A stretch of DNA of 64,000 bases from the sequence record OR525698.1; one strand, given 5' to 3'. This document shows positions 39,381 to 53,061 of this stretch, piece after piece. The notes below the pieces were generated by a model. The model saw only the letters and a program-made list of their open reading frames with translations. It had not been told where the DNA came from and did no database searches. The translations under genes were made by a program, and so were the position numbers. The stretch comes from Escherichia phage vB-Eco-KMB43. The stretch's first letter is position 1. Each line of letters begins with the position of its first letter.

Positions 39381-39446
39381 TCACGAAAACCATCGAGATT
39401 TAATAAATAGGGGCTTTAATGCCCCTTTATTCTACGGAGATTAAAA

Positions 39447-39683
39447 ATGATTAGCTTTAAACGTTTTTTGGTTGAGGCCGCTATTGACGGTTTCATGCGT
39501 AAGATTTATTCTTGTAATACTATCGAGGGATTAAATGAACTTGAGGCATATTATGAGAAGCGCAAGAAAGAAACAGAATTGAAACCTGCTGATGATATTT
39601 CGATCCGTGATGCCATCGCTGGACGCCGTAAGCAACTGGAAGCGGACAACGAGCCAGAAGATGAGCCGGAAGAGGATTTTTAA
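39447..39683 (+). CDS. uvsW.1: UvsW.1-like small protein
   Basis: 78 aa (T4 UvsW.1 76 aa) immediately downstream of uvsW; acidic C-terminus. Confidence 0.55.
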   Translation: MISFKRFLVEAAIDGFMRKIYSCNTIEGLNELEAYYEKRKKETELKPADDISIRDAIAGRRKQLEADNEPEDEPEEDF

Positions 39684-39689
39684 GATATA

Positions 39690-39713
39690 AAAAAGCCCCA
39701 TCATTGATGGGGC
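39690..39713 (-). terminator. hairpin terminator at convergence of uvsW.1 and the uvsY operon
   Basis: GCCCCATCATTGATGGGGC palindrome with T-run on the minus strand. Confidence 0.55.
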
Positions 39714-39746
39714 AAAATAAACCAATTAAAATCGGTTATCAACAAA

Positions 39747-39923
39747 TTACATTAACAGCATTGTTTGCTCTACGAGTTGTTCTTGTTCTTCGCCGTTCGC
39801 ATCTTCACTAATCGAACGTTCTGTTACTAGCTGTAAGCAGTAGCCAGTGTGAACAACGCCGTTTTCTGTCTGGACGGATAACGCATCCTCGACAGGTTGT
39901 TTACAACAAATACAGATTTTCAT
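39747..39923 (-). CDS. small Cys-rich protein (58 aa), uvsY.-1/-2 position
   Basis: AGGAGG SD 7 nt upstream of ATG 39923; MKICICCKQP...GYCLQ cysteine cluster; not in ORF track (<60 aa). Confidence 0.45.
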   Translation of the reverse strand: MKICICCKQPVEDALSVQTENGVVHTGYCLQLVTERSISEDANGEEQEQLVEQTMLLM

Positions 39924-39944
39924 AAAAATTCCTCCTGCATGTAT

Positions 39945-40352
39945 TTAGCGACCAGATTCCAGCATACGCAATTCTATAGCATTCTTGATCGCAAAGCCAC
40001 GAGATTTAACGATATCAAGTGCGCGACCAGCAAAATCCATTACCATCTGGTAATATGCAATTTTCGTATCAAGTGGTAAGATCTCGTCGTCTGCTGCCAT
40101 GACAACTTTCAATTCTGATTTCTCATATTCAGCACGACACCAGTCATCACTACGGTTAGTGTAAAAATCAAGACGATTTTTCATAGCCTTTTTCTTTTTA
40201 GCCTCAAGAGCAATCGTCTCTCTTTTCGCCTCGCTGTAAATCCTTAACCACTTTGAGTATACTACCGGATTATTCAGCGCCTCCCATTGCAACTTAGTCG
40301 CATCGATCTTCATGTCAGCTTCTAATTGTTCTTTCAAATCGTTTAGGTCCAT
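39945..40352 (-). CDS. uvsY: UvsY recombination mediator
   Basis: 135 aa; strong resemblance to T4 UvsY as recalled (DLKEQLEADMKIDATKLQWEALNN..., C-terminal VKSRGFAIKNAIELRMLESG). Confidence 0.8.
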   Translation of the reverse strand: MDLNDLKEQLEADMKIDATKLQWEALNNPVVYSKWLRIYSEAKRETIALEAKKKKAMKNRLDFYTNRSDDWCRAEYEKSELKVVMAADDEILPLDTKIAYYQMVMDFAGRALDIVKSRGFAIKNAIELRMLESGR

Positions 40353-40399
40353 AATATCCCCTTATTCACACTAAGACCTATATCATATCACACACAAAA

Positions 40400-40786
40400 T
40401 CACTTTGCAAGTCTTATGCGTAGTTGTTCAAGATCATCTGGGTTATCTATTACTGAAAAGTAGATTGATACTATGATTGAGTTATCGTCGTACTGCGGAG
40501 TTACTTCTACTGTCAGGTTTCGGACCCGTGGTTCATAGTTTCGGATCGCCTCATTGATGTTTTTTGATAAGGTGTCCACTGTCAGTGGGTTCATGTTCTC
40601 AAACAGTGATTTATTGAGATCGCATCCAAACAGTGGATCAAATGGACGAGATCCCTTGCGAGTAGTCACGATCAGTAGAATAGAATCCTTAACCGCTTTA
40701 ATCCCTATGTTCTTTTTAACGTCGTTATTCCACGATCTGGATATATTGAGATCCAAATCAGTATACATCTGATTAATAGTTGCCAT
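40400..40786 (-). CDS. gp25: baseplate wedge protein gp25
   Basis: matches T4 gp25 as recalled (TTRKGSRPFDPLFGCDL, FSVIDNPDDLEQ); ATG 40786 with GAGGT SD; ORF-track start 40798 is a TTG. Confidence 0.8.
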   Translation of the reverse strand: MATINQMYTDLDLNISRSWNNDVKKNIGIKAVKDSILLIVTTRKGSRPFDPLFGCDLNKSLFENMNPLTVDTLSKNINEAIRNYEPRVRNLTVEVTPQYDDNSIIVSIYFSVIDNPDDLEQLRIRLAK

Positions 40787-40794
40787 GTTATACC

Positions 40795-41424
40795 TCAAAG
40801 AATTTTAAGGAAACTGGATAGACCTGATAATGAATATACACCAGATTCCCCGCATTCGCACTTGATCGGTACTGCCAGCGTGATTTGATTTCTTGTTAGC
40901 TCGTCGATCACTTCTTCCACTTTATCCGTGGTAAGCATATCCAGCACACGGTCAAAGTCCTGTGCGTTCAGGTCGTCTATATTGAATTGCTGATCGCCGA
41001 TCACGATATATTCGATACATGCAATTACCATCTGCATAATATCAACATCTTCTGTAAATTTAGGTTGACGAAACTTGATTTTTACTTGTCCTAAGTCTAG
41101 AATATATGGTTCAACTTCTGGTATCTGTGTGCGTGAAACATCAAGAGAATATACTTTCTCTTTATTGCATACACCACACACCCAAGTAGCATCAATTTTC
41201 ATCTTATTGAGGCTGTGACACCATAAGAGAAGAAAAATATATTCTGCTTCGCATTTCTCTAGCTCTAATGCATTGATCCCCGTACATTCATGTATGATCT
41301 CTATAACAACCTCTGACAGCTTGCCAGTCTCTTTTGCTGCTACCAGTTTTTGAAATTCGCCGAAGGTGAAAGCACGGGCGTGTATCAACTTTTCGCCTAA
41401 TTGGATCTTGAAAAAGTATTGCAT
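40795..41424 (-). CDS. gp26: baseplate hub protein gp26
   Basis: 209 aa (T4 gp26 208 aa) upstream of gp25 on the minus strand; CGVCNKEK zinc-ribbon-like motif. Confidence 0.6.
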   Translation of the reverse strand: MQYFFKIQLGEKLIHARAFTFGEFQKLVAAKETGKLSEVVIEIIHECTGINALELEKCEAEYIFLLLWCHSLNKMKIDATWVCGVCNKEKVYSLDVSRTQIPEVEPYILDLGQVKIKFRQPKFTEDVDIMQMVIACIEYIVIGDQQFNIDDLNAQDFDRVLDMLTTDKVEEVIDELTRNQITLAVPIKCECGESGVYSLSGLSSFLKIL

Positions 41425-41466
41425 AATAAAACACCCTTTATAAACACATAGAATTATTTAGTATTT

Positions 41467-41474
41467 TATAAATA
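41467..41474 (+). promoter_or_regulatory. late promoter TATAAATA upstream of gene 51
   Basis: exact TATAAATA about 21 nt upstream of ATG 41495. Confidence 0.5.
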
Positions 41475-41494
41475 CCCGAAAGGGGGATTATACC

Positions 41495-42265
41495 ATGAAT
41501 ATTATCCGAATAAAACTACCGGAAGGTGTGCAGAGATTTAAACCCTTCACGGTAAAAGATTATAGAGATTTCCTTCTGGTGTCAACTGAAATTAAGATGA
41601 ATCCAGAAGAAGAACAAACGATTCTGGATGAGCTATTAGAAGAAATATATCCAGAAGTAGATCCGGCATTTCGTGAATATATTTTCCTGAATGTCTTTAC
41701 TAGTTCAATTGGTAAAACTAAGATACCGCTTTGTTTTACTTGCCCGACTTGCAACAAAGAAAGAAAAATGTTGCTTAACTTACAGGTTGAAGCACTAAAA
41801 CCAATCGTTCTAGAGGCCGCAGGGCTTAAAATAACTTTCCGGTATGTTAAACCATCAACCGACTATGCAAAAACGTTTCTGGATGCGATAGAGCGTGTAT
41901 CTGATGGTATTAATGATTATCTATGGACTGAATTACCGGAAGAAGTTAGAGAACAGGTTATCGATTCAATCTCATTTGCTGAATTTGAAGAAGTTGTTAA
42001 GCAGATGCACACAATCAAGATCGAACAAAAGATATCTTGTTGTGAAAGTCATGACCTGAAATACATAGGTCTTCTTCCATTGTTCAAATTGTTGTTGAAT
42101 CCAGATGAGTTATTCATCTTTTATCGAATAAACCATCTATTGGCAAAATCAAATTATTCTATCAGTGATCTTATGGACATGTTACCCGTCGAGAGAAACA
42201 TTGCACTGACACTGGTCGAGAAAGACGTAAAAGAGGCAAACAATGCAAAGAACGGGGTTTCCTAA
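41495..42265 (+). CDS. gp51: baseplate hub assembly protein gp51
   Basis: 256 aa (T4 gp51 249 aa); divergent from gp26; CPTCNKERK motif. Confidence 0.5.
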   Translation: MNIIRIKLPEGVQRFKPFTVKDYRDFLLVSTEIKMNPEEEQTILDELLEEIYPEVDPAFREYIFLNVFTSSIGKTKIPLCFTCPTCNKERKMLLNLQVEALKPIVLEAAGLKITFRYVKPSTDYAKTFLDAIERVSDGINDYLWTELPEEVREQVIDSISFAEFEEVVKQMHTIKIEQKISCCESHDLKYIGLLPLFKLLLNPDELFIFYRINHLLAKSNYSISDLMDMLPVERNIALTLVEKDVKEANNAKNGVS

Positions 42266-43352
42266 TGTCTCAATAAAACTTTATCAGGATTATGAGGCAT
42301 TTCTAAATCATCGCTTTATAGAATTGGGTGCTACCTTTGTTACAATGACTCTGCGTGATTCGATTCGTGGGGTGAACGAAGGATTGTTGCAATTCTATGA
42401 TAATAAGGCGATGCATACAAAATTAAACGGGAGAGAGATCATTCAGATTTCTCTATCCACTGCTAATACAGATGAAGTGTTTAACCGAATCTATGGGATC
42501 TCTCATAGTAATGTAACAATTGACCAAAAATCAGACAACATTTTAACATTCCAGTTAAAGAGTTATCATGAAACCCTAAACCTTAAATTTTCTAGCTCAT
42601 TGACAAATAACGCTGTTAATAACGTAACTAGTATGATTGATGCCATCTATAAGGAAGTTCCTTTATGGAAACCTACTATAAAGGGTGATAACGTTGTTAT
42701 TCCTCGTTGTCCGTGGGTTAGTACCATAAATGACTATATGGATTTTGTTAGGGCATACGGGCAAAGCGTAGAAACCGAGTCTTTCGTGTATTGCTGGGAA
42801 GATTTTGATGGTATAACGATCGCTGGACACGATACAATATTAAAAAATGAGCCAATACCAGCTATAATCTGTGAGCCTAGACTCATGGGGCAATTTATTG
42901 ATATGTCGCCTAATCTGATGGTTTTTAATTTCGAGTGGCAGACTAAGAGCAATGCTAAAGTTAAAAATTCATTTAGCAATGTGACATACACAACTATTGA
43001 TTTTGTTACTAAGCAGTATAATAAAATTATTGTTGGTAATGGGGATAATATTGCACACTTTGCTCATGGCGGCGCTTATGGCGATTTAACTTATAAGAAT
43101 GCGTTTTTGGAAGGTTCTAAACTTGCCACAATAGAACAATATGATTCATATGCTACCGCCGTGTGTCACGGTAATTTTTCGTTGCGCCCTGGTATGGTTA
43201 TTCGATTCTTTGATGAGAAGCAACAAGCACGCAATGATTTTATTGTTGACGAAGTTGTGCATGAAATTAGCCGAGAGCAATCATTAACTCACCTGTATAT
43301 GATCGGTAACAGCGAAGAATTACAGGAAGTCAAATTTGAAGGTAAGATATAA
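42243..43352 (+). CDS. gp27: baseplate hub protein gp27
   Basis: 369 aa; position before gp29-like ORF. Confidence 0.6.
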   Translation: MQRTGFPNVSIKLYQDYEAFLNHRFIELGATFVTMTLRDSIRGVNEGLLQFYDNKAMHTKLNGREIIQISLSTANTDEVFNRIYGISHSNVTIDQKSDNILTFQLKSYHETLNLKFSSSLTNNAVNNVTSMIDAIYKEVPLWKPTIKGDNVVIPRCPWVSTINDYMDFVRAYGQSVETESFVYCWEDFDGITIAGHDTILKNEPIPAIICEPRLMGQFIDMSPNLMVFNFEWQTKSNAKVKNSFSNVTYTTIDFVTKQYNKIIVGNGDNIAHFAHGGAYGDLTYKNAFLEGSKLATIEQYDSYATAVCHGNFSLRPGMVIRFFDEKQQARNDFIVDEVVHEISREQSLTHLYMIGNSEELQEVKFEGKI

Positions 43353-45058
43353 TGACAGAAACTAAACCTATGTTAAAATTTGTTGTTCCTGTAAAAAAAT
43401 TAGAGATAAACGGGAAACATATCAAGATCCCAAAAATGGGGATTAAGCAACATCGATTATTAAAAGATGTTCGTAGCTGTGATGAAACATTAAAGATTCT
43501 TCTTGATTCAATCTGTCCTGGGTTAAACGCTGCCGAGTCTGAATTGGTTATGCTTAACCTTTGTGCGTATGAAGAATTGCAAAAACTCAATAATTTCTCT
43601 TCTCAGATGAATGAGAAATTACGTGGTTTTGGTGTTATGATGGAACGTAGATTTGGTGTTGTCAGTAAAATGGCTAGCGGTATTGGTGCGATTGAAGAAG
43701 CACTGAAAAAACCGGAACAACCGCAAACAATGCCATCACCTCAGCCAGTTTTGCCTACTGTACCGGAACAGCCTAATAATGACAACTATCAAGGTCTTCC
43801 AAAGAAAAAACCAGATGTTGAGGAACGGAAGAAAAAGAACGCCGCAGATAAGCGCAATGCGGATTCTATGGAAAATCTTCTTAAAGTTGTTCGTGGAGGA
43901 TTTAAAGAAACCATAGGTATCTCTAATAAGGTCTTAGGGATGTTATTTAAGATCACCTTGACCGCTATGGCAGAAGCCGCAAAATGGGGCGCTATTTTGA
44001 TGGGTATTGTTTTTGCCATTGATACCCTTATGATTCATTTCAGATATTGGAGTGATTTATTCGAAACAAAATTTGATGAATTTATGGATAAAGCCGGAGA
44101 ATGGGCTGGACCCATTAGTGATATTCTAACAACTATTCGTCAAGTTCGAGATTATTGGTCTAAAGGTGAATATGGAGAATTAATTAAATCTCTTGTTATG
44201 GGTATTGGTGATGCATTCTATAAAACCTTTATCCAACTTGATCGAATTATCACTACTGGTATTGCTAAAATTCTTCGCATGATCCCTGGTATGGGTGATT
44301 ATGCCGATAAGTTAGAATATGGTGCTTTAAAATCTGCTGTCGCTCAAGGTTATACGCCAAATGAAAGAGAACTCGAATTAATGGATAAGGTCGAGTCTGA
44401 ACACGAAGAGGACAAATACGGGGAGCGTACTGGTTGGACCGGAAAAGCCCGTGATATTGGTGAGGCTATCGGTGACTCCATTAAAGATAAAGTTAACGAG
44501 GGTCTTGTTAGTCTGGGTTGGAGAGATCAAAAGGATGTTGACGCAGAGAAGCGACAAGAAGAATTAAAGCGCGGAGAATATGAGTCTGTTTCTGCTGAAC
44601 AACGATCTGCTAGTCGTAAACTTAGAATTAAAAGTGAGGGCGCGATCAACAATATTAATGAAGTTATGGAGAATTTGAGCGGTGACTATGACAAAGAAAG
44701 AATGGGAGAGTTGAAAAAGGATATTGATGTTTACCGTGAGCAAGTTCAAGATCCTACATTAGTTGAAAGTGATCGTTCTCAGTTAGAGCGTCTTATTGAA
44801 AAATTTGATGAGATGTATGCTGATAAAACTAAGGGTGTTGTGCAAACACAGCCGGTTCCTGCAACTGAAACGGAAACAGCAAAACAAGCGGAACGTACTG
44901 AACAAATGCAGAAACAAGCTGCAATCCAGAAACAAACGACAAATCAGACCTCAAACGTAAATAATACACAAATTGTAACAAACAATAGAACTATTAAACA
45001 GGGTGCACCAACAACTAGAATTGATGCCCCCGGTACAATTAATATGGGGAACTTTTAA
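43352..45058 (+). CDS. gp29: baseplate hub / tail-length determinant gp29-like protein
   Basis: 568 aa with central hydrophobic/helical segments; position between gp27 and gp48; no separate gp28-sized ORF present. Confidence 0.5.
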   Translation: MTETKPMLKFVVPVKKLEINGKHIKIPKMGIKQHRLLKDVRSCDETLKILLDSICPGLNAAESELVMLNLCAYEELQKLNNFSSQMNEKLRGFGVMMERRFGVVSKMASGIGAIEEALKKPEQPQTMPSPQPVLPTVPEQPNNDNYQGLPKKKPDVEERKKKNAADKRNADSMENLLKVVRGGFKETIGISNKVLGMLFKITLTAMAEAAKWGAILMGIVFAIDTLMIHFRYWSDLFETKFDEFMDKAGEWAGPISDILTTIRQVRDYWSKGEYGELIKSLVMGIGDAFYKTFIQLDRIITTGIAKILRMIPGMGDYADKLEYGALKSAVAQGYTPNERELELMDKVESEHEEDKYGERTGWTGKARDIGEAIGDSIKDKVNEGLVSLGWRDQKDVDAEKRQEELKRGEYESVSAEQRSASRKLRIKSEGAINNINEVMENLSGDYDKERMGELKKDIDVYREQVQDPTLVESDRSQLERLIEKFDEMYADKTKGVVQTQPVPATETETAKQAERTEQMQKQAAIQKQTTNQTSNVNNTQIVTNNRTIKQGAPTTRIDAPGTINMGNF

Positions 45059-46116
45059 TGAAAATTAGTGTTATCAATGATGCCGTTGATAGCTTTAAAG
45101 CGGGGGTTAAAACCTCCGCTGGTTTTACCTCAAAAAATAAAGGGAAAACATTAACCGCTCAATTCCCCGCTGAACGTGCTAGCGGTAATGATGCTAGCGG
45201 TTATTATATCAACGACTTATATAATAATGGTCTGTTATTCACTGCATACGATTACACCTCTCGTACTACTGGATCGCTGCGTGATTTCAGGAAAAAGAAA
45301 AATGTTGCTAGCGGTTTTGGTGGTAGCGTTAATATCGCTGGTTTTGATTTAAATTTGGGTGGGAGAAATGCTGCATTTGACCGAGAGGCAATTGCTAATA
45401 TTCTTCTTCCTCGTAGTCAATCTGACGTTGACGCTGCCAGCCATAAGTTTAATGATGTTGGTGAATCTGTTATTTCTCGCGGCGGTGGTACTTTAGGCGG
45501 TGCTCTTTCTAATATGGCATCTACTGCCGTTTTTGGTGGTATCGAAAGTATTACTGGTGGATACCTTGCCGATCACGGTGAACAGATTTATAATACTGCG
45601 CGAAGCATGTATGCGGGTGCTGATGCACGAACTAAAAACTACGTATGGCATCTAACCCCACGTAGTATTGAAGACCTTCGCAATATTCTGATCATATACG
45701 AAACGTTTTTAGAATTGTCTTATGGTTCTAGTGGCATTTCCAGCACCGCAAAAGAATTAAAAGCGGAAGTTGATGCGTGGTATAAAAATACACTATTGAG
45801 AAAATCCACCCCAGAGGAAGCGAAGAGAAATGATACTCTGTTTGAAGGGATCACCGATTTTCTATCAAACGTAATTACTGTATCTAACCCGACAATATGG
45901 ATGATCTCTAACTTCGGCAAGCGTACATCGTTTGAAGGGCGTAGCGATGCATTTGGTCCCGCTCAGATCTCAAGTGTACGTCTGGACAAGTCGCCTGATG
46001 GTAAGTTTAATGGCCTTGCTATTTCTCCTAACTTGCCGAGTACCTTTGTTCTGGAAGTATCATTTAGAGAGATCTTGACACTTTCCCGTGGTACTATATT
46101 TGGGAGTGCGGCATAA
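45058..46116 (+). CDS. gp48: baseplate tail-tube junction protein gp48
   Basis: 352 aa; C-terminal tube-like motif TFVLEVSFREI; synteny. Confidence 0.6.
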   Translation: MKISVINDAVDSFKAGVKTSAGFTSKNKGKTLTAQFPAERASGNDASGYYINDLYNNGLLFTAYDYTSRTTGSLRDFRKKKNVASGFGGSVNIAGFDLNLGGRNAAFDREAIANILLPRSQSDVDAASHKFNDVGESVISRGGGTLGGALSNMASTAVFGGIESITGGYLADHGEQIYNTARSMYAGADARTKNYVWHLTPRSIEDLRNILIIYETFLELSYGSSGISSTAKELKAEVDAWYKNTLLRKSTPEEAKRNDTLFEGITDFLSNVITVSNPTIWMISNFGKRTSFEGRSDAFGPAQISSVRLDKSPDGKFNGLAISPNLPSTFVLEVSFREILTLSRGTIFGSAA

Positions 46117-46646
46117 TGTTTGATTTAAATGACTTTAACGAACAAGCCGCTAACCTTGACTTTCAGCGATCGAACTTATTCAGCGTGGCATTTGCCACCA
46201 CTCCAAGTAATAAGACACAAGCGATCCTAGAAAGTATGGGTGGTGCGGTATATGATATTATACCAAATGCATTAAATGACTATTTCGGGATTACTCGTGG
46301 TGATTATACTGACGCATTAACAAATCTTGCTGTGCAGGGTGTTAGGCGTGCTGTTGATTCATCTGGTGTCAAAAAGTATCTTTTAGGTGCAATGTCATCC
46401 CGCGTAGTTCAATCTCTTCTGGGGCAATTTGATGTTGGTACATATGCGCTTGACTGGTTCAATCTGGCATATAAGACAAGCGGTCTTCTGGTGTATGCTG
46501 TTAAGGTTCCAGAAAACAGATTGAATTATGAAATGGACCGTAACCACAATGCGCCAAACATTCGATTAATGGTAAGTGTCTGGAAGAAAAAGATGGTCTT
46601 AAGCTGTCTGATGTGTATATTTGTACAGAGACTGAATTTACTTTAA
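46116..46646 (+). CDS. gp54: gp54-like tail-tube initiator, N-terminal segment (frame interrupted)
   Basis: N-terminus MFDLNDFNEQAANLDFQRSNLFSVAF parallels gp19 N-terminus; last ~18 codons look like out-of-frame read-through. Confidence 0.45.
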   Translation: MFDLNDFNEQAANLDFQRSNLFSVAFATTPSNKTQAILESMGGAVYDIIPNALNDYFGITRGDYTDALTNLAVQGVRRAVDSSGVKKYLLGAMSSRVVQSLLGQFDVGTYALDWFNLAYKTSGLLVYAVKVPENRLNYEMDRNHNAPNIRLMVSVWKKKMVLSCLMCIFVQRLNLL

Positions 46647-46867
46647 ATGGTAAAGTCTTTAAATTTAAAAATCCAATGTATACTTCTGACCCCATTATCG
46701 ATGACGCTGATTTCTTGAGTCATCATTATCACGATCCTAGTGTAGACTTCCATGATTTCCCAGCTTTTATTATGGATTGGGCTACAGGATTAAGAAAAAC
46801 TATTGCACTGGATACACCGGAAGGTACTATCTATGGTGGAATTAACATATTGGATCGCCTATCATGA
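46613..46867 (+). other. middle open frame within the gp54 region (frame 2, GTG-initiated in ORF track)
   Basis: frame open from 46544 to 46867, overlapping the 3' end of the previous segment by ~100 nt. Confidence 0.3.
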
Positions 46868-46972
46868 ATGACGCATTAACATCATTTCGCGGGATGCGCA
46901 AGGAAGCGGAAGAAAACCCGATTGATAAACTTAACAAATTAGATAAACGGACGTGATTTCGATCCGCTTGTA

Positions 46973-47425
46973 TTGAGCTTTAGAATGGACTCTAGCGCAT
47001 CAAACTATCGAGCAATGCAGGATTGGGTTAACTCAGTAGAAGACCCCGTTACAGGGCTTCGTGCGCTTCCTGTTGACGTTGAAGCAGATATTCAGGTTAA
47101 CTTACATAACCGAATGGGAGTTCCTCACACGATCATGATGTTTAATGGTTGTGTTCCTGTTGGTGTGAGTGCACCGGAATTAACCTATGAAAATAACAAC
47201 GAAATAACAACATTCGATGTTACTTTCGCATATCGTTCTATGCAAACTGGTGCTGTAGGAGAGCAAGCCGCGCGAGAATGGATTGAGGATAAGGCAATAA
47301 ACGCAATAACAAACACTTTCGGCAATAATTTACTTGATAGTGGGTTATCTGCTGCTGGTAATGCTTTATCGCGTCTAAATGGCGTTGGTGGGCGTGTGGT
47401 GAATACTGTCACTAACTGGTTCTGA
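46973..47425 (+). CDS. gp54: gp54-like tail-tube initiator, C-terminal segment
   Basis: contains tube C-terminal motif PELTYENNNEITTFDVTFAY paralleling gp19 EVTLDWEQNNEVETFEVTFAI; frame open from 46943. Confidence 0.45.
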   Translation: MSFRMDSSASNYRAMQDWVNSVEDPVTGLRALPVDVEADIQVNLHNRMGVPHTIMMFNGCVPVGVSAPELTYENNNEITTFDVTFAYRSMQTGAVGEQAAREWIEDKAINAITNTFGNNLLDSGLSAAGNALSRLNGVGGRVVNTVTNWF

Positions 47426-47433
47426 TAATCGAA

Positions 47434-47460
47434 AGGCGGGGATTATCCCCGCCTTTTTAT
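47434..47460 (+). terminator. rho-independent terminator after gene 54
   Basis: AGGCGGGGATTATCCCCGCCT hairpin followed by TTTTTATTTT. Confidence 0.65.
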
Positions 47461-47942
47461 TTTGCTAAATCATTGCAATATTTTAGTGCCTTAGTTTGAA
47501 ATTCTGCGCTGTTAAGTTCTTCATAACGGTCATAATCACCGTTTAATGCTGCTTTTCTTGCTTCTTGCTCTATCTGCATGTCAGACATGATAATACAGCG
47601 ATCCCGTGCTTTCATCTTCTCAAGTTGTATAAACTCTTCTTTCTGTTTGCGCAATTCTTCTTGACGCTTCTTTTCTTCTCGTGCTTTCTCTTCCCGCGCT
47701 TCTTTGATTGCATCCTTGAACATCTGCGTTTGTGGTGCTAAACCAACTTTAACGCGACCCACGTCTCGACGTTCCATTTTAGAAATAAAGCATGATTCGA
47801 TCTGATCATCACTTGCATATGCTGCTTTACATTCACGAAGCAAGAAAACCGGATCTGATTTAGCATTCATCATAGCTTCCATGTTAGCACAACCAGTAAG
47901 CATGAATGCAGACGCAAGACCAATTAGTTTAATCATTTTCAT
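47457..47942 (-). CDS. predicted lipoprotein with charged coiled-coil region
   Basis: 161 aa; signal peptide plus lipobox LTGC (MKMIKLIGLASAFMLTGC); Lys/Glu-rich helical segment. Confidence 0.5.
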   Translation of the reverse strand: MKMIKLIGLASAFMLTGCANMEAMMNAKSDPVFLLRECKAAYASDDQIESCFISKMERRDVGRVKVGLAPQTQMFKDAIKEAREEKAREEKKRQEELRKQKEEFIQLEKMKARDRCIIMSDMQIEQEARKAALNGDYDRYEELNSAEFQTKALKYCNDLAK

Positions 47943-48763
47943 TTAGTCACCTCACCGAAAATTGTAAATTGTCTACGATTCTCATCGCCGAAAGATTCTA
48001 CTACGTCGTTTACCTTGACGCAAGTCCCGCGCGGTAAAATTACTTCACATTCGCAAGGATTCCATGCAATTGACCCAACAACAAAACCTTTATGATCTTT
48101 TACGTCAATTACCCACGATACATTACAAGAATGTTGCATCTTTCCGGTCATCGATTCATATCGATTCTCACAATAAAGGCTAGTGCTGTTTGATAGCCAT
48201 CCTCCAAAGATGATCGGTGTCATGCTGGTCGATACAAAGTTTTTAAAGGTAAACTCCTTATCTTCAATGATGCGCTCTATTGTCTGAATGTCAAGATGTT
48301 GACCGCGATAAAGAGTACCGTTTAACTTTTCGGTTTTATCCATGACACAATCCATCAAATCGACAATCTCTGATATCTCGTCGGTCATGTCTTCTTCCCC
48401 TAAGAGAGCACCATTTACCCATTCGTATTGTTCAGATACATAATCACAGATTGCATTATATTCTGCTGGGGTTATGTTGTTATGTTTGTAATGTTTGAAT
48501 ACATTATCTCCAAAGTCTTCGGAATGTACTTCATACATCACATTAATGATTTTCTTGACAAATCCATAATCTTGTGTCTCGCGCTCAAGGAAGCGGATAA
48601 CCTTCACATAATCATCAAAGTTAATCTGATCGCTGATCATCTCAGTGATCATGTAACCATTAATCCCCTCAATGTCATATGTTTCAATATAATTGTCCAT
48701 ACGTTCCATCATTGATTCGCGTGATTCTTCCGAAAGACGAAAATCCTGTAATTTCTTGAACAT
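47939..48763 (-). CDS. ADP-ribosyltransferase, Alt-like paralogue (short)
   Basis: 274 aa; R-S-ExE motifs TLYRGQHL, FVSTSMTP, CECEVILPRG shared with the Alt ORF. Confidence 0.55.
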   Translation of the reverse strand: MFKKLQDFRLSEESRESMMERMDNYIETYDIEGINGYMITEMISDQINFDDYVKVIRFLERETQDYGFVKKIINVMYEVHSEDFGDNVFKHYKHNNITPAEYNAICDYVSEQYEWVNGALLGEEDMTDEISEIVDLMDCVMDKTEKLNGTLYRGQHLDIQTIERIIEDKEFTFKNFVSTSMTPIIFGGWLSNSTSLYCENRYESMTGKMQHSCNVSWVIDVKDHKGFVVGSIAWNPCECEVILPRGTCVKVNDVVESFGDENRRQFTIFGEVTK

Positions 48764-48842
48764 TTTAAACCTCCCATATAACAGAAAACGGGGCTAGTAT
48801 AAAACTAGTCCCCGTTTGAGTCAACCATTATTTCTTAAAAAA
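48764..48842 (-). promoter_or_regulatory. intergenic hairpin plus sigma70-like promoter (minus strand) between alt and the alt-like gene
   Basis: on minus strand TTGACT (plus 48809-48814), 17-bp spacer, TATACT (plus 48786-48791); imperfect palindrome AACGGGGCTAGT..ACTAGTCCCCGTT. Confidence 0.4.
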
Positions 48843-50894
48843 TTACATTTTAAATTTATCTGGCATTGCGTCTACAGATACCAGATCAGCGATAAGCTGA
48901 CGTAGAGTTGCCTTATCTGCTTTCTTACGTTCGGTTTTAGCTTCGCTAATGAAGCTGGAGAAAGACAGGTCAGAAGCAGGTTTAATAACACCTTCACGGA
49001 TGAATGCATCACCGTCTGCGATCATCTCGCCAGATTCTTGTAATGCTGCCAGTTCATTTTTGTTCATAATATGTGCCTCAATGTAATAAGTTTCTTGTGA
49101 ATCCGTCGATGCCGTAGCACGAGTTACCGTATCAAAGGATAACACAACACCGCGAGGAAGTAAAATCTCGCATTCTTTGTAAGCAAATGCTTTGTTACCT
49201 ACTGGCAACACAGGGATGTTTTCCGCGCCAGCAATGGAGAAAGCAACATTAGCGCCACCTTCACCGCGAGAGCCAGCCATAGAATCAACACCAGCAACGG
49301 CACTAGCCACGTTTGCATTCCAGCCGCCAAAAATGTTAGGTGCAAGGGAAGTGCTCACATAGTTTTTAAAGTAAAACGCTTTTTGCTTACGTGCAGTTTC
49401 CCACATTTGAGTCCGGAAGTCCATACCACGATACAGAATAGTACCCGGATCAAGTTTAACGCCATAGTTGGAGAAGGCATTATCCAGTGCATCGCACATC
49501 TTGACCAATTCTTCTGGATCTGCGATGCCTTCAAACTCTTCCAGCTTACGATCAGTTAGGAAGTTGTTCATATTGATGTATGCTGCATCGGCATATTCGC
49601 TCAATACAAAACCTTCCGCGCCCGGCAGATCAAGATCAATATCTGCCATCATTTCACCCATGTTGCTAGCAATTGCTTCAAACATACCGGAAGCAACATT
49701 ACGTAGGGCATCGGTTTTAATCTGGGTGATATGACTACGCAGCATTTCAGCTTTTACATCTGCTGGCATAGACTGGTCTACTCGATCCATTGCCAGGGCG
49801 GTGATCTTGTTTTCGAATACTTCCTCGCTCATGATTTCTTTTAAGCGTTTGATTGATGCTGCGATAACTTCCGCAGACAACGGATCATATTGATCCTGAA
49901 CTTTTACCAGTTCGCTTACTGCGTATTTTGCATCTGCTTCGCTTTCAAAAATAGTACGCATGAAACCATAGCGAGTGATAATATCACTTGTCCAGTCATT
50001 CAGAGAACGGGCGGTTGAACGTTCTAATGCTTGACGATCAATCAGAGTATTAAACTGTTTCTTAGGTTCGGCTTCGGTGATATCTTCTTCCGGTTTAAGA
50101 TTAATTTTTTCTGGATGATTCACATAGTCGCTGTTATAGGTCGCTTGAGTTTTCAGCATTTCTTCTTTAGTCAAACGAGATTTAGCCGCTACGCGTTGTT
50201 CTGCTTCCGCGTTTCGTTCTTCTTCTGACACAAGACTAGCCGCATACGCCTCATCTTTAGTCAGAGATTCACCAGTAGCCTTAGATACCCAGCGATCACC
50301 TAAATCACTTTCTACTTTAGTGAACAAGGATTCATCAAGTTTAATCCCTTTAATCTTATCAATCGCCATCCCGCGACGCTTGACAACAACTAAAGCGATC
50401 TTTTTGCTGGTCATTACTTCCTGCTGGAATACTTCAAACTTCGGTGTACGACGCACCAAACGCTCTATAACGCGCTTAACCAGTTCGGTCTTACCTTTCA
50501 TGCGGGATACGTTAAAACGGAACATAACAGCGTCTAATTGCGCTTTACGGGCTGTTTCCATAACCACATCAAAAGCACTTGCCATAACTGCAATCGGGTT
50601 ATCTCCTAGACCATTTTTAAGCTGTACAATACGACCGCTTTTGTTCATTTCGCACAGTACAACATGTGCGGTCTTGTCACCCATACGAATGATTTTAGGT
50701 GTTTTGTTGGTGAAGTTACAAAGACGGACAATCACATCTTTATCGCGTGTCTGTACTGCAAAAAGCTGTTTAGGATTCTGCTTAGGCTTTAAGCACTGTA
50801 CCGGAGCAATACTGCCAAAGTTTTCTTCCTCTTCCGTCAACAGCCATTTCTCGAAAGATTCAATCATTAGATCGTCGATTTCTAAGTTAAACAT
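48843..50894 (-). CDS. alt: Alt ADP-ribosyltransferase
   Basis: 683 aa (T4 Alt 682 aa); ART motifs ILYRGMDF, YVSTSLAP, KECEILLPRG near C-terminus. Confidence 0.7.
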   Translation of the reverse strand: MFNLEIDDLMIESFEKWLLTEEEENFGSIAPVQCLKPKQNPKQLFAVQTRDKDVIVRLCNFTNKTPKIIRMGDKTAHVVLCEMNKSGRIVQLKNGLGDNPIAVMASAFDVVMETARKAQLDAVMFRFNVSRMKGKTELVKRVIERLVRRTPKFEVFQQEVMTSKKIALVVVKRRGMAIDKIKGIKLDESLFTKVESDLGDRWVSKATGESLTKDEAYAASLVSEEERNAEAEQRVAAKSRLTKEEMLKTQATYNSDYVNHPEKINLKPEEDITEAEPKKQFNTLIDRQALERSTARSLNDWTSDIITRYGFMRTIFESEADAKYAVSELVKVQDQYDPLSAEVIAASIKRLKEIMSEEVFENKITALAMDRVDQSMPADVKAEMLRSHITQIKTDALRNVASGMFEAIASNMGEMMADIDLDLPGAEGFVLSEYADAAYINMNNFLTDRKLEEFEGIADPEELVKMCDALDNAFSNYGVKLDPGTILYRGMDFRTQMWETARKQKAFYFKNYVSTSLAPNIFGGWNANVASAVAGVDSMAGSRGEGGANVAFSIAGAENIPVLPVGNKAFAYKECEILLPRGVVLSFDTVTRATASTDSQETYYIEAHIMNKNELAALQESGEMIADGDAFIREGVIKPASDLSFSSFISEAKTERKKADKATLRQLIADLVSVDAMPDKFKM

Positions 50895-50940
50895 TTTATA
50901 TCCTCTAGTTGATAACCTATAAACCTATATTTATGAAAAA

Positions 50941-50955
50941 GGGGCTTAACGCCCC
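50941..50955 (-). terminator. hairpin terminator (minus strand)
   Basis: GGGGCTTAACGCCCC palindrome with T-run on the minus strand. Confidence 0.5.
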
Positions 50956-50961
50956 CATTTA

Positions 50962-51174
50962 TTATAATGCACCATCGAGCAATTGCTCTAAGGTGTATCC
51001 TGAATAGTCTTTTTCAATCAGGATATATTTTCCTACTCGTTTAATACAACCGCGCATTTCAACGTATTCTGCGTAGTTGATGGTGCGAGTTGTTCCATCT
51101 TCCAGTAATGCAGTACCGATTTCGTTAATGCGGTCATAAGTTACGTCGGTAATGATGATTTCGATGTTAGCCAT
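50962..51174 (-). CDS. hypothetical small protein (70 aa)
   Basis: ORF preceded by cassette copy 1 with AAGGAG SD. Confidence 0.45.
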   Translation of the reverse strand: MANIEIIITDVTYDRINEIGTALLEDGTTRTINYAEYVEMRGCIKRVGKYILIEKDYSGYTLEQLLDGAL

Positions 51175-51245
51175 TTGATACTCCTTAGTAGTTCGTTTCG
51201 GTATGGGTGTATTATGATATACACCCTCTGTTATGTCAACAACTT
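51175..51245 (-). promoter_or_regulatory. promoter/5'UTR cassette copy 1 (PeSL-like)
   Basis: minus-strand TTGACA (plus 51234-51239), 17-bp spacer, CATAAT, conserved UTR ...ACACCCATACCGAAACGA..AAGGAG. Confidence 0.6.
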
Positions 51246-51425
51246 TTAGAACATTTTTGAAATCAATTCTGCTTTGATTTCGCAGAGAACATCTAAAGAT
51301 TTCTCGTCACCTGCTTTTGCTGCTTCTGCTTGCATTTTTGAAATGGCTTCAATGTCGGTGCAATTATAAGCCGCTTGAACTTTAGCGATTGCGATGATTG
51401 CCGATTCGATGGTTAAGTGTTTCAT
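51246..51425 (-). CDS. hypothetical small protein (59 aa)
   Basis: ATG 51425 directly downstream of cassette copy 2; not in ORF track. Confidence 0.4.
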   Translation of the reverse strand: MKHLTIESAIIAIAKVQAAYNCTDIEAISKMQAEAAKAGDEKSLDVLCEIKAELISKMF

Positions 51426-51495
51426 GTTTGATTCCCCTTTCGTTTCGGTATGTGTGTATTATAGGGGATCACCGATCCCCCTGTCAACAACTTTT
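51426..51495 (-). promoter_or_regulatory. promoter/5'UTR cassette copy 2 (PeSL-like)
   Basis: TTGACA (plus 51482-51487), palindromic spacer GGGGGATCGGTGATCCCC, TATAAT, conserved UTR. Confidence 0.65.
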
Positions 51496-51498
51496 TAG

Positions 51499-52014
51499 TT
51501 ATTTTTTTAATTGCTCATCTTGCAATAGGGCAATCACATGCTGGCGATGTTCTTCCGATTGAGGCACACCGAAAAAGTTTGTTTTGTAGAAATACTCTAA
51601 TCGGTCTTCTCGTGTGCTCTCTTCCATCATGATCGCGGGTAGTCCGAGATTTCGGAAACGTCGCTTTTCTGCTGGCGTAAAATCACTGTAATACAACATA
51701 GAATCATCATTACCAGCAATGCTAAACTCATCCTTCATAAAGGAGAATATTGCGTTTAAACGCTGTTTACCGTCCACGATTTCGATCTCATAGCGAGAGC
51801 CATCATCAATCTTAGCCATTGCGATAGCACCGACCGGAAAATCATTAATCAGGTTTTCGATAAACATACGTTTGTTTTCGGTGTCCCATACCAAAGGACG
51901 CTGATAATCTGGGTTCATGTTGATATAGCCATCTTCTAACCATGCTTCGTAAACAGAGATGACAAAGTTTTTAGTATTGGTATAGTAACGGCGTTTAGGC
52001 GTTAAACGGTTCAT
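51499..52014 (-). CDS. DUF262 / ParB-like nuclease-domain protein
   Basis: motifs DYQRPLVW and VDGKQR; ATG 52014 with AGGAGA SD, 1 nt after the upstream stop; ORF-track alternative start 52050. Confidence 0.55.
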   Translation of the reverse strand: MNRLTPKRRYYTNTKNFVISVYEAWLEDGYINMNPDYQRPLVWDTENKRMFIENLINDFPVGAIAMAKIDDGSRYEIEIVDGKQRLNAIFSFMKDEFSIAGNDDSMLYYSDFTPAEKRRFRNLGLPAIMMEESTREDRLEYFYKTNFFGVPQSEEHRQHVIALLQDEQLKK

Positions 52015-52015
52015 G

Positions 52016-52348
52016 TTATAGTCTCCTGAATGGATCATCACGTAAATCAATATCTTTTAAGAACTCATCCCATGAATGGCGGATATTGTTCTTAATTCTC
52101 CAGATAAGCGCAGGGATTGAACGCTCTCCCATCTGGAAGTATGGATCATATGATCCGTATGCCCAATATGCTACTACAATTCCACAATCAGCGCAATAGT
52201 ATTCTATTTCACTTGCTGGCGACCAAAGTCCATCAATATGATCGGTGATCTTGCTTTCGATGTTATGGCTATGACAATCAGGGCAACGGATGCAATGACC
52301 TTGTTTATCGTAATTTGACGTTAGCGAATACTTAAACAATCTCATCAT
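52016..52348 (-). CDS. zinc-ribbon protein (two CxxC pairs)
   Basis: 110 aa; CIRCPDC ... CADCG; start overlaps upstream stop (ATGA). Confidence 0.45.
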   Translation of the reverse strand: MMRLFKYSLTSNYDKQGHCIRCPDCHSHNIESKITDHIDGLWSPASEIEYYCADCGIVVAYWAYGSYDPYFQMGERSIPALIWRIKNNIRHSWDEFLKDIDLRDDPFRRL

Positions 52349-53061
52349 AGATCCTTATTTGCTTCAAATACTGCCTTTGCGAATCCTCGCGGGGTAAGTG
52401 ACCTGATAGTCTTTGTTTTCGTTCCTTTCCCGCCTAGCTTAGAATGCTGTTTACTGTACCCTTTATTAATCTGCAAAGGTTTCTTTTCTGGCATTATAAA
52501 GCCTTGTCCGGTCCATAAGCAAGTCTTTTTCGGGTACATATCACGGGCGGCGATATACTCAGGAAAAGTAGGATGTTTATCATCTTCCGGCAAATAACCG
52601 CCATATTCCCACGGATGGAACATATAATCAGGCTTACGCCACATGCTAGAGATAACGCTTACAGGATTCTCTATCATGTAGGGAACTCCTAGCCATTCAC
52701 CCAAATAAGCGGTTATTTTAGCTGCCCGTACATCATGAACTTGAATCAATGGTCCTTGCTCTCGTTTCTTTCGTTCAAAGTGTGCAGCGCCACTAACAGC
52801 TAAATTGGTGCACGGTGGGAATGCAAAGATAATATCCGGTTTCCCCCATTCAAGGTCCATTGCTCTTTCCAGCCAGTTCAAATCAATCCAGGTGTTTACA
52901 TAGGTAATGTTTGGATGTTCAAATCTGGTATTATACTTTTTGTATGTACCGTGGTCGGCGTCATCCGCATTAAAGCAGACTACCTTATGACCTGCTTTAG
53001 CCCATTCTAGCCCCATTATCCCCGATCCGTCAAAGTTACAGAATATTAATTTTTGTTTCAT
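52345..53061 (-). CDS. C5-cytosine methyltransferase-fold protein (atypical PCT motif)
   Basis: 238 aa; motif I-like FCNFDGSGIMG, motif IV-like DIIFAFPPCTNLAVSGA, motif VI-like MIENP; no obvious target-recognition domain. Confidence 0.5.
   Translation of the reverse strand: MKQKLIFCNFDGSGIMGLEWAKAGHKVVCFNADDADHGTYKKYNTRFEHPNITYVNTWIDLNWLERAMDLEWGKPDIIFAFPPCTNLAVSGAAHFERKKREQGPLIQVHDVRAAKITAYLGEWLGVPYMIENPVSVISSMWRKPDYMFHPWEYGGYLPEDDKHPTFPEYIAARDMYPKKTCLWTGQGFIMPEKKPLQINKGYSKQHSKLGGKGTKTKTIRSLTPRGFAKAVFEANKDL

What the first reader, a model, noticed from the sequence alone, without database searches (positions are those of the whole stretch)
46116..47425. Gene 54 (tail-tube initiator) is split across three reading frames
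The gp54-like coding region starts in frame at 46116 with a tube-type N-terminus, and the tube-type C-terminal motif is in a different frame in the ORF starting near 46973. In between, the first frame degenerates into a hydrophobic tail after the lysine run AAG AAA AAG (46584-46592), while a second frame is open from 46544 to 46867 and reads like normal protein. A -1 shift at the AAAAAG run would join the first and second segments. The second and third segments are in the same frame but separated by stops at 46865 and 46877, with a 30-codon ORF (46864-46956) in another frame. Possibilities are sequencing indels, a pseudogene, programmed recoding (frameshift, or a bypass like T4 gene 60), or a short intervening sequence. 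Gene 54 is essential in T4, so a true pseudogene would be surprising.
Basis: seen in the sequence. Interest (0 to 1): 0.6.

Follow-up and report, generated by a model that had tools for sequence, protein, structure and literature searches.

The report
Misplaced gene fragment interrupts gene 54
Tail gene 54 of this RB49-like coliphage is not recoded or spliced: it is cut in two by a 383-base piece of the phage's own genes 28 and 29, which is missing from its normal place 3 kb upstream, so this is a one-off rearrangement (probably an artefact) that breaks three essential genes.

Summary
Gene 54 (46116-47425) is interrupted and its two halves are in different frames.

The cause is ordinary. Window 46566-46948 (383 nt) is more than 99% identical to the 3' end of gene 28 plus the first 28 codons of gene 29. 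In all 58 related Krischvirus genomes that sequence lies about 3 kb upstream. In this window the native site (43567/43568) carries a 541-nt deletion. The deletion starts at exactly the base where the displaced piece starts. The other 158 nt are absent from the window.

- The "normal-looking" middle frame is the gp28 C-terminus (Pfam PF11110).
- The 30-codon ORF is the gp29 N-terminus.
- Removing the insert and restoring ATTAC gives a 310-aa gp54 that aligns without gaps to solved T4 gp54.
- Putting the insert back restores gp28 completely.
- The insert has no intron signature, no unusual RNA structure, no target-site duplication and no terminal repeats.
- The A AAA AAG frameshift would only fuse gp54 to gp28.
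- No public assembly shares the junctions or the gp28::gp29 fusion.
- Every other conserved gene in the 64 kb is intact.

Three essential baseplate and tail genes are broken. The sequence is therefore most likely a chimera or assembly artefact (about 0.6), or else a defective molecule (about 0.3). Interest is low.

The parts
46116..46565 (+). Gene 54 (baseplate tail-tube initiator), 5' part, codons 1-150, ending ...N-I-R (CGA 46563-46565).
   Evidence: 98.7% aa identity to G5211 gp54 residues 1-151. DNA is colinear with 58 Krischvirus genomes up to this point.
46566..46948 (+). Displaced 383-nt fragment (each end ambiguous by 1 nt), equal to reference G5211 110057-110439. It replaces ATTAC(C) of gene 54. 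It has no target-site duplication and no terminal inverted repeat.
   Evidence: 99.2-99.7% identical to the gene 28/29 junction of 54 of the 58 relatives. There is 1 mismatch in 383 nt against L014 and L016. Junctions were read base by base. Repeat scan. RNA fold z = +0.50. No intron family at E <= 10.
46566..46867 (+). Within the fragment: gene 28 codons 73-172 plus the stop TGA (the first T of codon 73 was left behind at 43568).
   Evidence: Pfam PF11110 Phage_hub_GP28, profile positions 57-151, E = 4.4e-9. Joining 43352-43568 to 46566-46867 gives gp28 identical to G5211 at 173/173 positions (172 residues plus the stop).
46864..46948 (+). Within the fragment: gene 29 codons 1-28 (MNDALTSFRGMRKEAEENPIDKLNKLDK), with the native ATGA overlap with the gene 28 stop. 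As written, it runs out of frame into gene 54 and stops at 46954-46956.
   Evidence: Translation compared with G5211 gp29.
46949..47425 (+). Gene 54, 3' part, codons 153-310 plus the stop. It has no start codon of its own except the fortuitous TTG at 46973 and ATG at 46985.
   Evidence: 99.3% aa identity to G5211 gp54 residues 165-310. Pfam PF06841 tube fold. The repaired gene (46116-46565 + ATTAC + 46948-47425) gives 310 aa, matches G5211 at 309 of 311 positions (310 residues plus the stop; 2 substitutions), and aligns without gaps to solved gp54 chains 5iv5_W, 9ufn_C and 9f4a_BQ.
43352..43568 (+). Gene 28 (baseplate hub distal subunit), 5' part, codons 1-72. It is fused in frame to gene 29.
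   Evidence: Pfam PF11110 positions 1-49 at residues 26-74 of the 568-aa ORF. 98.6% identical to G5211 gp28 residues 1-73.
43567..43569 (+). Deletion junction: 541 nt of the reference (G5211 110057-110597) are missing here, with 1-nt (T) microhomology. The first 383 nt of the missing stretch are the fragment now in gene 54. The last 158 nt (gp29 codons 29-81) are absent from the whole window.
   Evidence: A blastn-short search for the 158 nt in the window finds only chance matches of 10-14 nt.
43568..45058 (+). Gene 29 (tape measure / tail length determinator) from codon 82 to the stop. Together with the gene 28 stub it forms a 568-aa gp28(1-72)::gp29(82-577) fusion ORF.
   Evidence: Pfam PF25671 T4_Tape_measure, profile positions 144-585 of 590..
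45058..46116 (+). Gene 48 (tail tube cap), intact at 352 aa. It lies inside the 2,997-nt block that now separates the fragment from its origin.
   Evidence: The exact protein is found on 23 public contigs. All 10 shown have the canonical neighbours of 172, 577, 352 and 310 aa.
47427..47461 (.). Bidirectional hairpin terminator between gene 54 and the convergent ORF 47457-47942. It marks the normal end of the gene 54 transcription unit.
   Evidence: Inverted repeat I13. Weak Rfam hits here are all terminator-like hairpins. Annotated as a terminator in several relatives.

Best explanation
SHOWN. The window is a Krischvirus (RB49-like, T4-type) genome.

- Gene 54 is interrupted at codon 150/151 by a 383-nt piece of the phage's own DNA: the last 100 codons of gene 28 plus the first 28 codons of gene 29.
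- That piece is single-copy in the window. At its native site, 2,997 nt upstream, there is a 541-nt deletion whose first base is exactly the first base of the displaced piece.
- The remaining 158 nt are gone, and 5-6 nt of gene 54 (ATTAC/C) are lost at the insertion point.
- Relative to every relative, the order A-B-C-D-x-E has become A-D-B-E.
- The three novel junctions share only 0-3 nt of homology.
- As written, the sequence encodes five products:
  - a gp28(1-72)::gp29(82-577) fusion;
  - a truncated gp54(1-150) with a 26-residue out-of-frame tail;
  - a start-less gp28 C-terminal fragment;
  - a 30-residue gp29 N-terminal peptide;
  - a start-less gp54 C-terminal half.
- Nothing in the sequence can rejoin the gp54 halves.

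INFERRED. Genes 28, 29 and 54 are all needed for T4 hub and tail-tube assembly. The displaced copy has accumulated no changes. Nothing else in the 64 kb is damaged. So this is not a heritable feature of a propagating phage. Most likely it is a single cut-and-paste event introduced while the sequence was produced, through a chimeric template or read, an assembly or finishing error, or editing of the record.

My confidence that the structure is a displaced gene 28/29 fragment is about 0.98. The figure below is my confidence in the artefact origin specifically.
For: - All 58 related phage records join the two gene 54 flanks directly, spanning 1,124-1,125 nt against 1,501 nt in the window.
- All 58 carry the interrupting sequence at the gene 28/29 junction instead, 54 of them at 95% identity or more (43 of those at 99% or more).
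- Block order and junctions were read base by base.
- There is no second copy in the window.
- In silico reversal restores gp54 (identical to G5211 at all but 2 of its 310 residues) and gp28 (all 172 residues and the stop), and restores gp29 once the missing 158 nt are supplied from G5211 (572/578 positions).
- Pfam assigns the middle frame to gp28, and the upstream ORF to gp28 plus the tape measure.
- Repaired gp54 aligns end to end, without gaps at the junction, to solved gp54 of T4 and relatives.
- Of 81 reference ORFs of at least 90 aa, the only conserved genes not recovered intact are 28, 29 and 54.
- Twelve independent NCBI, ENA and Logan contigs carrying the identical gp48 or Alt protein were checked: eleven span the locus and have the canonical layout, and the twelfth ends inside gene 54, which is uninterrupted at the insertion site.
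- The gene 54/insert junction string is absent from IMG/VR, JGI metagenomes and GTDB genomes, and the 28/29 deletion-junction string is absent from IMG/VR.
- The fusion and truncated proteins are not on record.
- No protein among 5.8 billion clusters covers more than 46% of a query spanning the fusion point.
- The roles of gp28, gp29, gp48 and gp54 in hub and tube assembly are reviewed in PMC3004832.
Against: - No reads are available, so an artefact cannot be demonstrated directly.
- The junctions share only 0-3 nt. A de Bruijn-graph misjoin would normally need a shared k-mer, so an ordinary short-read misassembly is not a natural explanation.
- The rest of the window is clean, with no sign of a low-quality assembly.
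- Flanking polymorphism shows no switch of closest relative at the junctions, so this is not a two-strain chimera.
- The exact coincidence of the deletion start with the fragment start points to a physical or in silico cut-and-paste. That could equally have happened in a cell.
Confidence: 0.6

Rival explanations
1. The structure is the same but arose in vivo. A single illegitimate (non-homologous) recombination event occurred in an infected cell. Examples are excision of the gene 28/29 fragment by two breaks, resealing of the chromosome, exonucleolytic loss of about 158 nt and capture of the fragment in a third break in gene 54; or excision of a B-C-D circle and its reinsertion after opening at a different point. 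The result was a defective genome that was packaged and sequenced, carried by co-infecting wild type or sampled in a virome.
For: - Microhomologies of 0-3 nt and a small target-site deletion are typical of end joining or illegitimate recombination.
- The deletion start and the fragment start coincide to the base, as expected for one concerted physical event.
- The window is otherwise clean.
- RB49-type phages do produce small excised DNA circles during infection, although through PeSL repeats (PMC2839356).
- From general knowledge, T4-type phages recombine very actively and encode a ligase able to join ends.
Against: - Three essential genes are destroyed at once, so the molecule cannot propagate alone and should not dominate a consensus assembly.
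- No other public assembly shows any of the junctions or the fusion protein.
- No repeat or PeSL lies at any breakpoint.
- The event needs three or more breaks and joins in one molecule.
Confidence: 0.33
2. The phage is viable, and gp54 is made from the interrupted gene by programmed recoding. This would be a -1 frameshift at A AAA AAG (46586-46592) followed by readthrough or bypass of the stops at 46865 and 46877, or a long gene-60-like bypass of the whole insert.
For: An A-rich run of the dnaX type lies at 46584-46592. The middle frame and the C-terminal frame are the same frame.
Against: - The -1 product would be gp54(1-150) plus junk plus the gp28 C-terminus, not gp54.
- Homologues, including solved structures, run directly from NIR to ITGRDFDPL, so no gp54 segment is left for the middle frame to supply.
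- The lysine run is native gene 28 sequence found in all relatives.
- A bypass would have to skip 383 nt against 50 nt in T4 gene 60. There are no matching take-off and landing codons and no stop directly after the take-off codon.
- Recoding would not rescue genes 28 and 29.
Confidence: 0.01
3. The 383 nt are an intron or another self-removing intervening sequence, spliced out of the gene 54 mRNA (or an intein at protein level).
For: T-even phages carry group I introns in td, nrdB and nrdD (general knowledge). The insert length is in the range of small ORF-less group I introns.
Against: - No Rfam intron family matches at E <= 10, even with permissive filters.
- Folding energy is no better than shuffled sequence (z = +0.50).
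- The sequence is 99.7% identical to ordinary coding DNA of genes 28 and 29.
- The exon 1 end (A) and the insert end (A or C) do not fit the U...G rule for group I boundaries.
- Five to six exon nucleotides are missing, so precise removal would still leave gene 54 frameshifted.
- The net insertion of 377 nt is not a multiple of 3 and carries stops, which excludes an intein.
Confidence: 0.01
4. The phage is viable with genuinely split and permuted genes. The fragments of gp28, gp29 and gp54 would be expressed separately and would assemble by fragment complementation.
For: The gp28::gp29 fusion is in frame. The gp29 N-terminal peptide keeps its native start context.
Against: - The gp28 C-terminal fragment and the gp54 C-terminal half have no proper start codon or ribosome-binding site.
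- 53 codons of gp29 and 2 codons of gp54 are missing altogether.
- An in-frame fusion has a 1-in-3 chance expectation.
- No related genome shows any step towards such an arrangement.
Confidence: 0.03

Closest known systems
Illegitimate (short-homology or non-homologous) recombination and chimeric-template or assembly artefacts that relocate a DNA segment
   Same: A unique segment is removed from one place and joined into another. The junctions have 0-3 nt of homology and a few bases are lost at the target. There are no element-encoded functions.
   Different: Classic T4 cases (general knowledge) are simple deletions or tandem duplications in non-essential regions and are recovered in viable phage. 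Here three junctions and three essential genes are involved, and part of the moved segment is lost.
PeSL-mediated modular shuffling and mini-circles in RB49 and phi1 (Arbiol et al. 2010, PMC2839356)
   Same: The phage genus is the same. That mechanism excises short DNA segments as circles that could reinsert elsewhere. The A-D-B-E order here can formally be produced by excising and reinserting a permuted circle.
   Different: PeSL events are homologous exchanges between promoter/stem-loop cassettes in hyperplastic regions that flank non-essential ORFs. None of the breakpoints here lies in a PeSL or any repeat, and they fall inside core structural genes. The window's PeSL copies lie at 51190-59063.
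T4 gene 60 translational bypass
   Same: A T4-type phage gene whose coding halves are separated by non-coding-for-that-protein nucleotides.
   Different: Gene 60 has a 50-nt gap, matched GGA take-off and landing codons, a stop directly after take-off, a hairpin and a nascent-peptide signal (general knowledge). Here the gap is 383 nt of another gene, with none of those signals.
Group I introns and homing-endonuclease insertions that split T-even genes (td, nrdB, nrdD; gene 39/60 and split nrdA)
   Same: An essential phage gene is interrupted by a few hundred nucleotides.
   Different: There is no ribozyme core and no endonuclease ORF. The downstream half has no start or ribosome-binding site. 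The insert is a piece of neighbouring structural genes that is simultaneously deleted from its own locus.

Membership tests
Group I intron | Conserved P3-P9 catalytic core detectable by a covariance model (Rfam RF00028 and related families) | tested here: not met
   cmscan of 46000-47500 on both strands at E <= 10 gives no intron family. The only hits are terminator hairpins near 47430 and chance snoRNA matches.
Group I intron | The 5' exon ends in U (U-G pair in P1), the intron ends in G, and removal restores the reading frame | tested here: not met
   Exon 1 ends ...CGA and the insert ends ...GATAAA(C). Five to six exon nucleotides (ATTAC/C) are missing, so exact excision leaves a frameshift.
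Group I intron | Stable, conserved RNA structure | tested here: not met
   MFE is -83.7 kcal/mol against a shuffle mean of -86.6, z = +0.50.
Programmed -1 ribosomal frameshift | The shifted frame encodes the continuation of the same protein, as judged from homologues | tested here: not met
   The -1 frame after 46592 is the gp28 C-terminus (PF11110 positions 57-151). gp54 homologues need no such segment.
Programmed -1 ribosomal frameshift | Slippery heptamer X XXY YYZ in the zero frame, plus a downstream stimulatory structure | tested here: inconclusive
   The zero-frame codons are AAG AAA AAG, giving the heptamer G AAA AAG, an imperfect match to the A AAA AAG type. No stimulatory structure was examined because the product test already fails.
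Translational bypass (T4 gene 60 type) | Matching take-off and landing codons, a stop codon directly after take-off, and a short (about 50 nt) gap with a take-off hairpin | tested here: not met
   The gap is 383 nt. CGA (46563-46565) is followed by TTA ATG, not a stop. The codon before the resumption point is AAC or ATA, not CGA.
Intein | In-frame insertion without stops, with splice-junction residues (C/S/T ... HN + C/S/T) | tested here: not met
   The net insertion is 377 nt, not a multiple of 3. Stops occur in all three frames across the insert.
Homing-endonuclease-split gene | The intervening DNA encodes an endonuclease (GIY-YIG, HNH or LAGLIDADG), and each half has its own translation start | tested here: not met
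   Pfam finds only Phage_hub_GP28 in the insert. The downstream gp54 half has no ATG with a ribosome-binding site at its beginning.
Transposable element, MITE or IS | Terminal inverted repeats, target-site duplication, and multiple copies or a transposase | tested here: not met
   There are no inverted repeats at 46566/46948. A 5-6 nt target-site deletion is present instead of a duplication. The window holds a single copy. In 58 relatives the sequence is fixed core-gene DNA.
PeSL-mediated modular shuffling (RB49/phi1) | Breakpoints lie within PeSL cassettes (a sigma-70 promoter with an embedded stem-loop) flanking the mobilised segment | tested here: not met
   No repeat shared between breakpoints beyond 1-3 nt. 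The PeSL-like repeats are confined to 51190-59063.
T4-type gp54 (baseplate tail-tube initiator) | A continuous protein of about 310-320 aa, homologous end to end to T4 gp54 | tested here: not met
   As written, the gene yields only residues 1-150 plus a 26-aa tail. Only the in silico repaired gene matches 5iv5_W over residues 1-305 at E = 1.8e-115.

The most novel reading that the evidence does not exclude
The rearrangement is real and happened in a cell. It would be a single concerted, homology-independent cut-and-paste. Either a fragment was excised and recaptured 3 kb downstream, or a permuted 3.5-kb circle was reinserted. The event would have occurred inside the core structural module of a T4-type phage and been preserved in a packaged defective genome. 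This would be a direct snapshot of the illegitimate recombination that occasionally reshuffles phage core genes, independent of PeSL cassettes.
Probability: 0.3. Interest if true: 0.3.

Novelty: not a real feature. Interest (0 to 1): 0.1.

Why it matters
Mainly as a caution. A gene that looks "split over three frames" with a slippery A-run nearby invites a recoding or intron story. Here, comparison with close relatives shows in a few steps that the intervening sequence is a misplaced piece of two neighbouring genes.

Annotation pipelines would report a truncated gp54, a spurious gp28::gp29 fusion and several small "hypothetical proteins" from this record. The record should be corrected or flagged.

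If the rearrangement proved to be physical, it would be a modest example of non-homologous segment relocation in a T4-type genome. It would still be a dead-end molecule rather than a new biological mechanism.

Tried and rejected
- **Group I or II intron, or other structured RNA.** The Rfam scan with permissive filters was negative. Folding was no better than shuffles.
- **-1 frameshift at AAAAAG, or bypass.** Rejected because the target frame is gp28 and gp54 homologues lack any extra segment.
- **Duplication, with a second copy at the native site.** Rejected: the fragment is single-copy, and the native site carries a 541-nt deletion.
- **Mobile element.** There is no target-site duplication, no terminal inverted repeat and no extra copies.
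- **General poor sequence quality.** Rejected: all other conserved ORFs are intact.
- **Two-strain chimera with a switch at the junctions.** The mismatch maps against six relatives show no switch of nearest relative at 43568, 46566 or 46949.
- **Search for the missing 158 nt elsewhere in the window.** Only chance matches of 10-14 nt were found.
- **Search for the source record or an independent occurrence.** All of these were negative:
  - exact strings for the gene 54/insert junction (three DNA collections) and the 28/29 deletion junction (IMG/VR);
  - exact-protein look-ups of the fusion and of the truncated gp54;
  - a 5.8-billion-protein search with a query spanning the fusion point.
- **Common restriction site or motif at the breakpoints.** Inspection of the sequences showed nothing consistent.
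Full report
**What the window is.** Megablast of 46000-47500 and of 41500-48000 against 50,697 phage records finds 58-59 Krischvirus genomes (RB49, Phi1, JSE, GEC-3S, G5211, LF73P4 and others), nearly all (54-55) at 95-99% identity. A whole-window comparison with phage G5211 (MK327947.1) is colinear from gene 53 to pseT. The only differences are presence or absence of homing-endonuclease genes, a variable region, and one out-of-order block. The local gene order is 51-27-28-29-48-54, as in T4 and RB49.

**Checking the observation.**
- The frame that starts at 46116 reads a gp54-type N-terminus, then unrelated residues, and stops at 46644-46646.
- A second frame is open from 46544 to 46867.
- The same frame, after stops at 46865 and 46877, carries the gp54-type C-terminus from 46943 to 47425.
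- A 30-codon ORF lies at 46864-46956.
- One correction: homology to gp54 ends at 46565 (…N-I-R), six codons before the AAG AAA AAG run, not after it.

**What the intervening sequence is.**
- In all 58 relatives the two gene 54 flanks are directly adjacent. The matched stretch is 1,124-1,125 nt in the records against 1,501 nt in the window.
- The extra sequence, searched alone, matches every one of the 58 records (at 99.2-99.7% in the closest), but at a different place. That place is the 3' end of gene 28 (baseplate hub distal subunit) and the 5' end of gene 29 (tape measure / tail length determinator), about 3 kb upstream of gene 54.
- Block-by-block BLAST gives the following, in G5211 coordinates:

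| Window | G5211 reference |
|---|---|
| 39326-43568 | 105814-110056 |
| 43568-46568 | 110598-113599 |
| 46563-46948 | 110054-110439 |
| 46948-54618 | 113601-121268 |

- Reading the junctions base by base refines this. The displaced piece is 46566-46948, equal to reference 110057-110439 (383 nt).
- The native site has lost reference 110057-110597 (541 nt), so the deletion and the displaced piece begin at the same base.
- Reference 110440-110597 (158 nt, gp29 codons 29-81) is nowhere in the window.
- Gene 54 has lost ATTAC(C) at the insertion point.
- Each junction is ambiguous by one base. Shared homology is 0-3 nt.
- In block terms, every relative reads A-B-C-D-x-E and the window reads A-D-B-E.

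**Consequences for the genes.**
- Pfam assigns the "normal-looking" middle frame (46544-46867) to Phage_hub_GP28, profile positions 57-151.
- Pfam assigns the 568-aa ORF 43352-45058 to Phage_hub_GP28 positions 1-49 followed by T4_Tape_measure positions 144-585. This ORF is an in-frame gp28(1-72)::gp29(82-577) fusion.
- The 30-codon ORF is gp29 residues 1-28 running out of frame into gene 54.
- Reversing the rearrangement in silico restores the genes:
  - 43352-43568 plus 46566-46867 gives gp28 identical to G5211 at 173/173 positions (172 residues plus the stop);
  - 46116-46565 plus ATTAC plus 46948-47425 gives a 310-aa gp54 that differs from G5211 at only 2 residues;
  - gene 29 is restored (572/578) once the missing 158 nt are supplied from G5211.
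- The repaired gp54 aligns end to end, with no gap at NIR|ITGRDFDPL, to the solved gp54 chains 9f4a_BQ, 9ufn_C and T4 5iv5_W (E = 1e-115 to 1e-122). No part of gp54 is left for the insert to supply.

**Recoding, splicing and mobile-element readings.**
- A permissive Rfam scan of 46000-47500 finds no intron or other relevant family.
- The insert with its flanks folds no better than shuffled sequence (z = +0.50).
- The boundary nucleotides do not fit group I rules, and exact excision would still leave gene 54 five to six nucleotides short.
- A -1 shift at the A-run would fuse gp54(1-150) to the gp28 C-terminus. That run is native gene 28 sequence present in all relatives.
- A bypass would have to cover 383 nt without matching take-off and landing codons.
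- The net insertion (377 nt) is out of frame and full of stops, which excludes an intein.
- There is no target-site duplication, no terminal inverted repeat and no second copy. The only Pfam domain in the insert is gp28. A transposon, MITE or homing-endonuclease cassette is therefore excluded.
- RB49-type phages shuffle modules and form mini-circles through PeSL promoter/stem-loop cassettes (PMC2839356). None of the breakpoints lies in such a cassette or in any repeat. The window's PeSL copies are at 51190-59063.

**Is it a heritable feature of a real phage lineage?**
- Of 81 reference ORFs of at least 90 aa, the only conserved genes not recovered full-length in the window are 28, 29 and 54. 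The other misses are absent homing-endonuclease genes, antisense ORFs, variable-region ORFs or genes beyond the window end.
- In T4, gp29 and probably gp28 belong to the baseplate hub. gp48 and gp54 form the platform on which the tail tube polymerises (PMC3004832). That these genes are essential rests on classical T4 amber genetics, which I cite from general knowledge.
- The displaced copy differs from its closest relatives at 1 of 383 positions, and its gp28 part is 100% identical at protein level. The event has therefore had no time to decay.
- Twelve independent contigs from NCBI, ENA metagenomes and Logan assemblies encode the identical gp48 or the identical Alt protein. The eleven that span the locus have the canonical 172/577/352/310-aa layout, and the twelfth, which ends inside gene 54, is uninterrupted at the insertion site.
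- The gene 54/insert junction string is absent from IMG/VR, JGI metagenomes and GTDB genomes, and the 28/29 deletion-junction string from IMG/VR.
- The fusion protein and the truncated gp54 are not on record.
- No protein among 5.8 billion clusters covers more than 46% of a 160-aa query spanning the fusion point.
- The rearrangement is therefore private to this sequence.

**How it arose (inference).** The exact coincidence of the deletion start with the fragment start, together with near-coincidence at the gene 54 site, indicates one concerted cut-and-paste rather than independent mutations. A tandem duplication followed by two deletions would need an unlikely coincidence of breakpoints.
- Against a standard k-mer misassembly: the junctions share no k-mer.
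- Against a two-strain chimera: the nearest relative does not change at the junctions.
- What remains is either a chimeric template or read, a finishing error or an edit that entered the record, or a genuine illegitimate recombination event in a cell giving a defective, non-propagating genome.
- I weight these at about 0.6 and 0.3. A molecule lacking three essential genes should not dominate a consensus. Sequence alone cannot separate the two origins.
- Recoding, splicing and viable split-gene scenarios together get about 0.05.

**Verdict.** The recoding and intron interpretations are refuted. This is not a new biological feature, and interest is low (0.1). The most novel reading not excluded is a real in vivo, homology-independent segment relocation in a T4-type core module (probability about 0.3, interest if true about 0.3).

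Noticed in passing
window 51190-59063 (copies at about 51190, 51424, 53571, 53802, 54162, 54523, 55026, 55802, 57424, 58586 and 58994): A family of 45-75-nt intergenic repeats. Read on the minus strand they are TTGACA, then a GC-rich stem-loop (GGGGATC...GATCCCC), then TATAAT. They match the PeSL promoter-early stem-loop cassettes described for RB49 and phi1, which mediate modular shuffling in hyperplastic regions. A 172-nt repeat pair lies at 53634-53805 and 57255-57426 (87% identity).
   Followed up: partly
window 37829-39330: The GIY-YIG homing-endonuclease gene that G5211 carries upstream of uvsW (G5211 103653-104384) is absent here. The adjacent uvsW is only about 84.5% identical to G5211, against 97-99% elsewhere. 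This pattern fits endonuclease-associated allele divergence.
   Followed up: no
window about 4057-4060 and 19416-19499: Two more homing-endonuclease genes of G5211 are absent from the window: the HNH gene at 68699-69238 after gene 5.1, and the GIY-YIG gene at 84602-85246 between genes 13 and 14. The flanks are joined cleanly.
   Followed up: no
window 54618-55026, 55891-56515 and 57495-59422: Stretches of the hyperplastic region downstream of alt have no counterpart in G5211. They contain accessory ORFs that differ between Krischvirus strains and are bounded by the PeSL repeats.
   Followed up: no
window 47457-47942 (minus strand): The conserved hypothetical ORF convergent with gene 54 (the RB49 ORF182c homologue, 161 aa) begins MKMIKLIGLASAFMLTGC. 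This looks like a lipoprotein signal peptide with a lipobox cysteine, followed by a charged KE-rich region. It has no Pfam family in the precomputed annotations of its relatives.
   Followed up: no
window 47427-47461: A perfect GC-rich hairpin (AAAGGCGGGGAT/ATCCCCGCCTTT) flanked by A- and T-runs lies between the convergent gene 54 and ORF 47457-47942. It is a bidirectional intrinsic terminator and accounts for all the weak Rfam sRNA-type hits in the region.
   Followed up: partly
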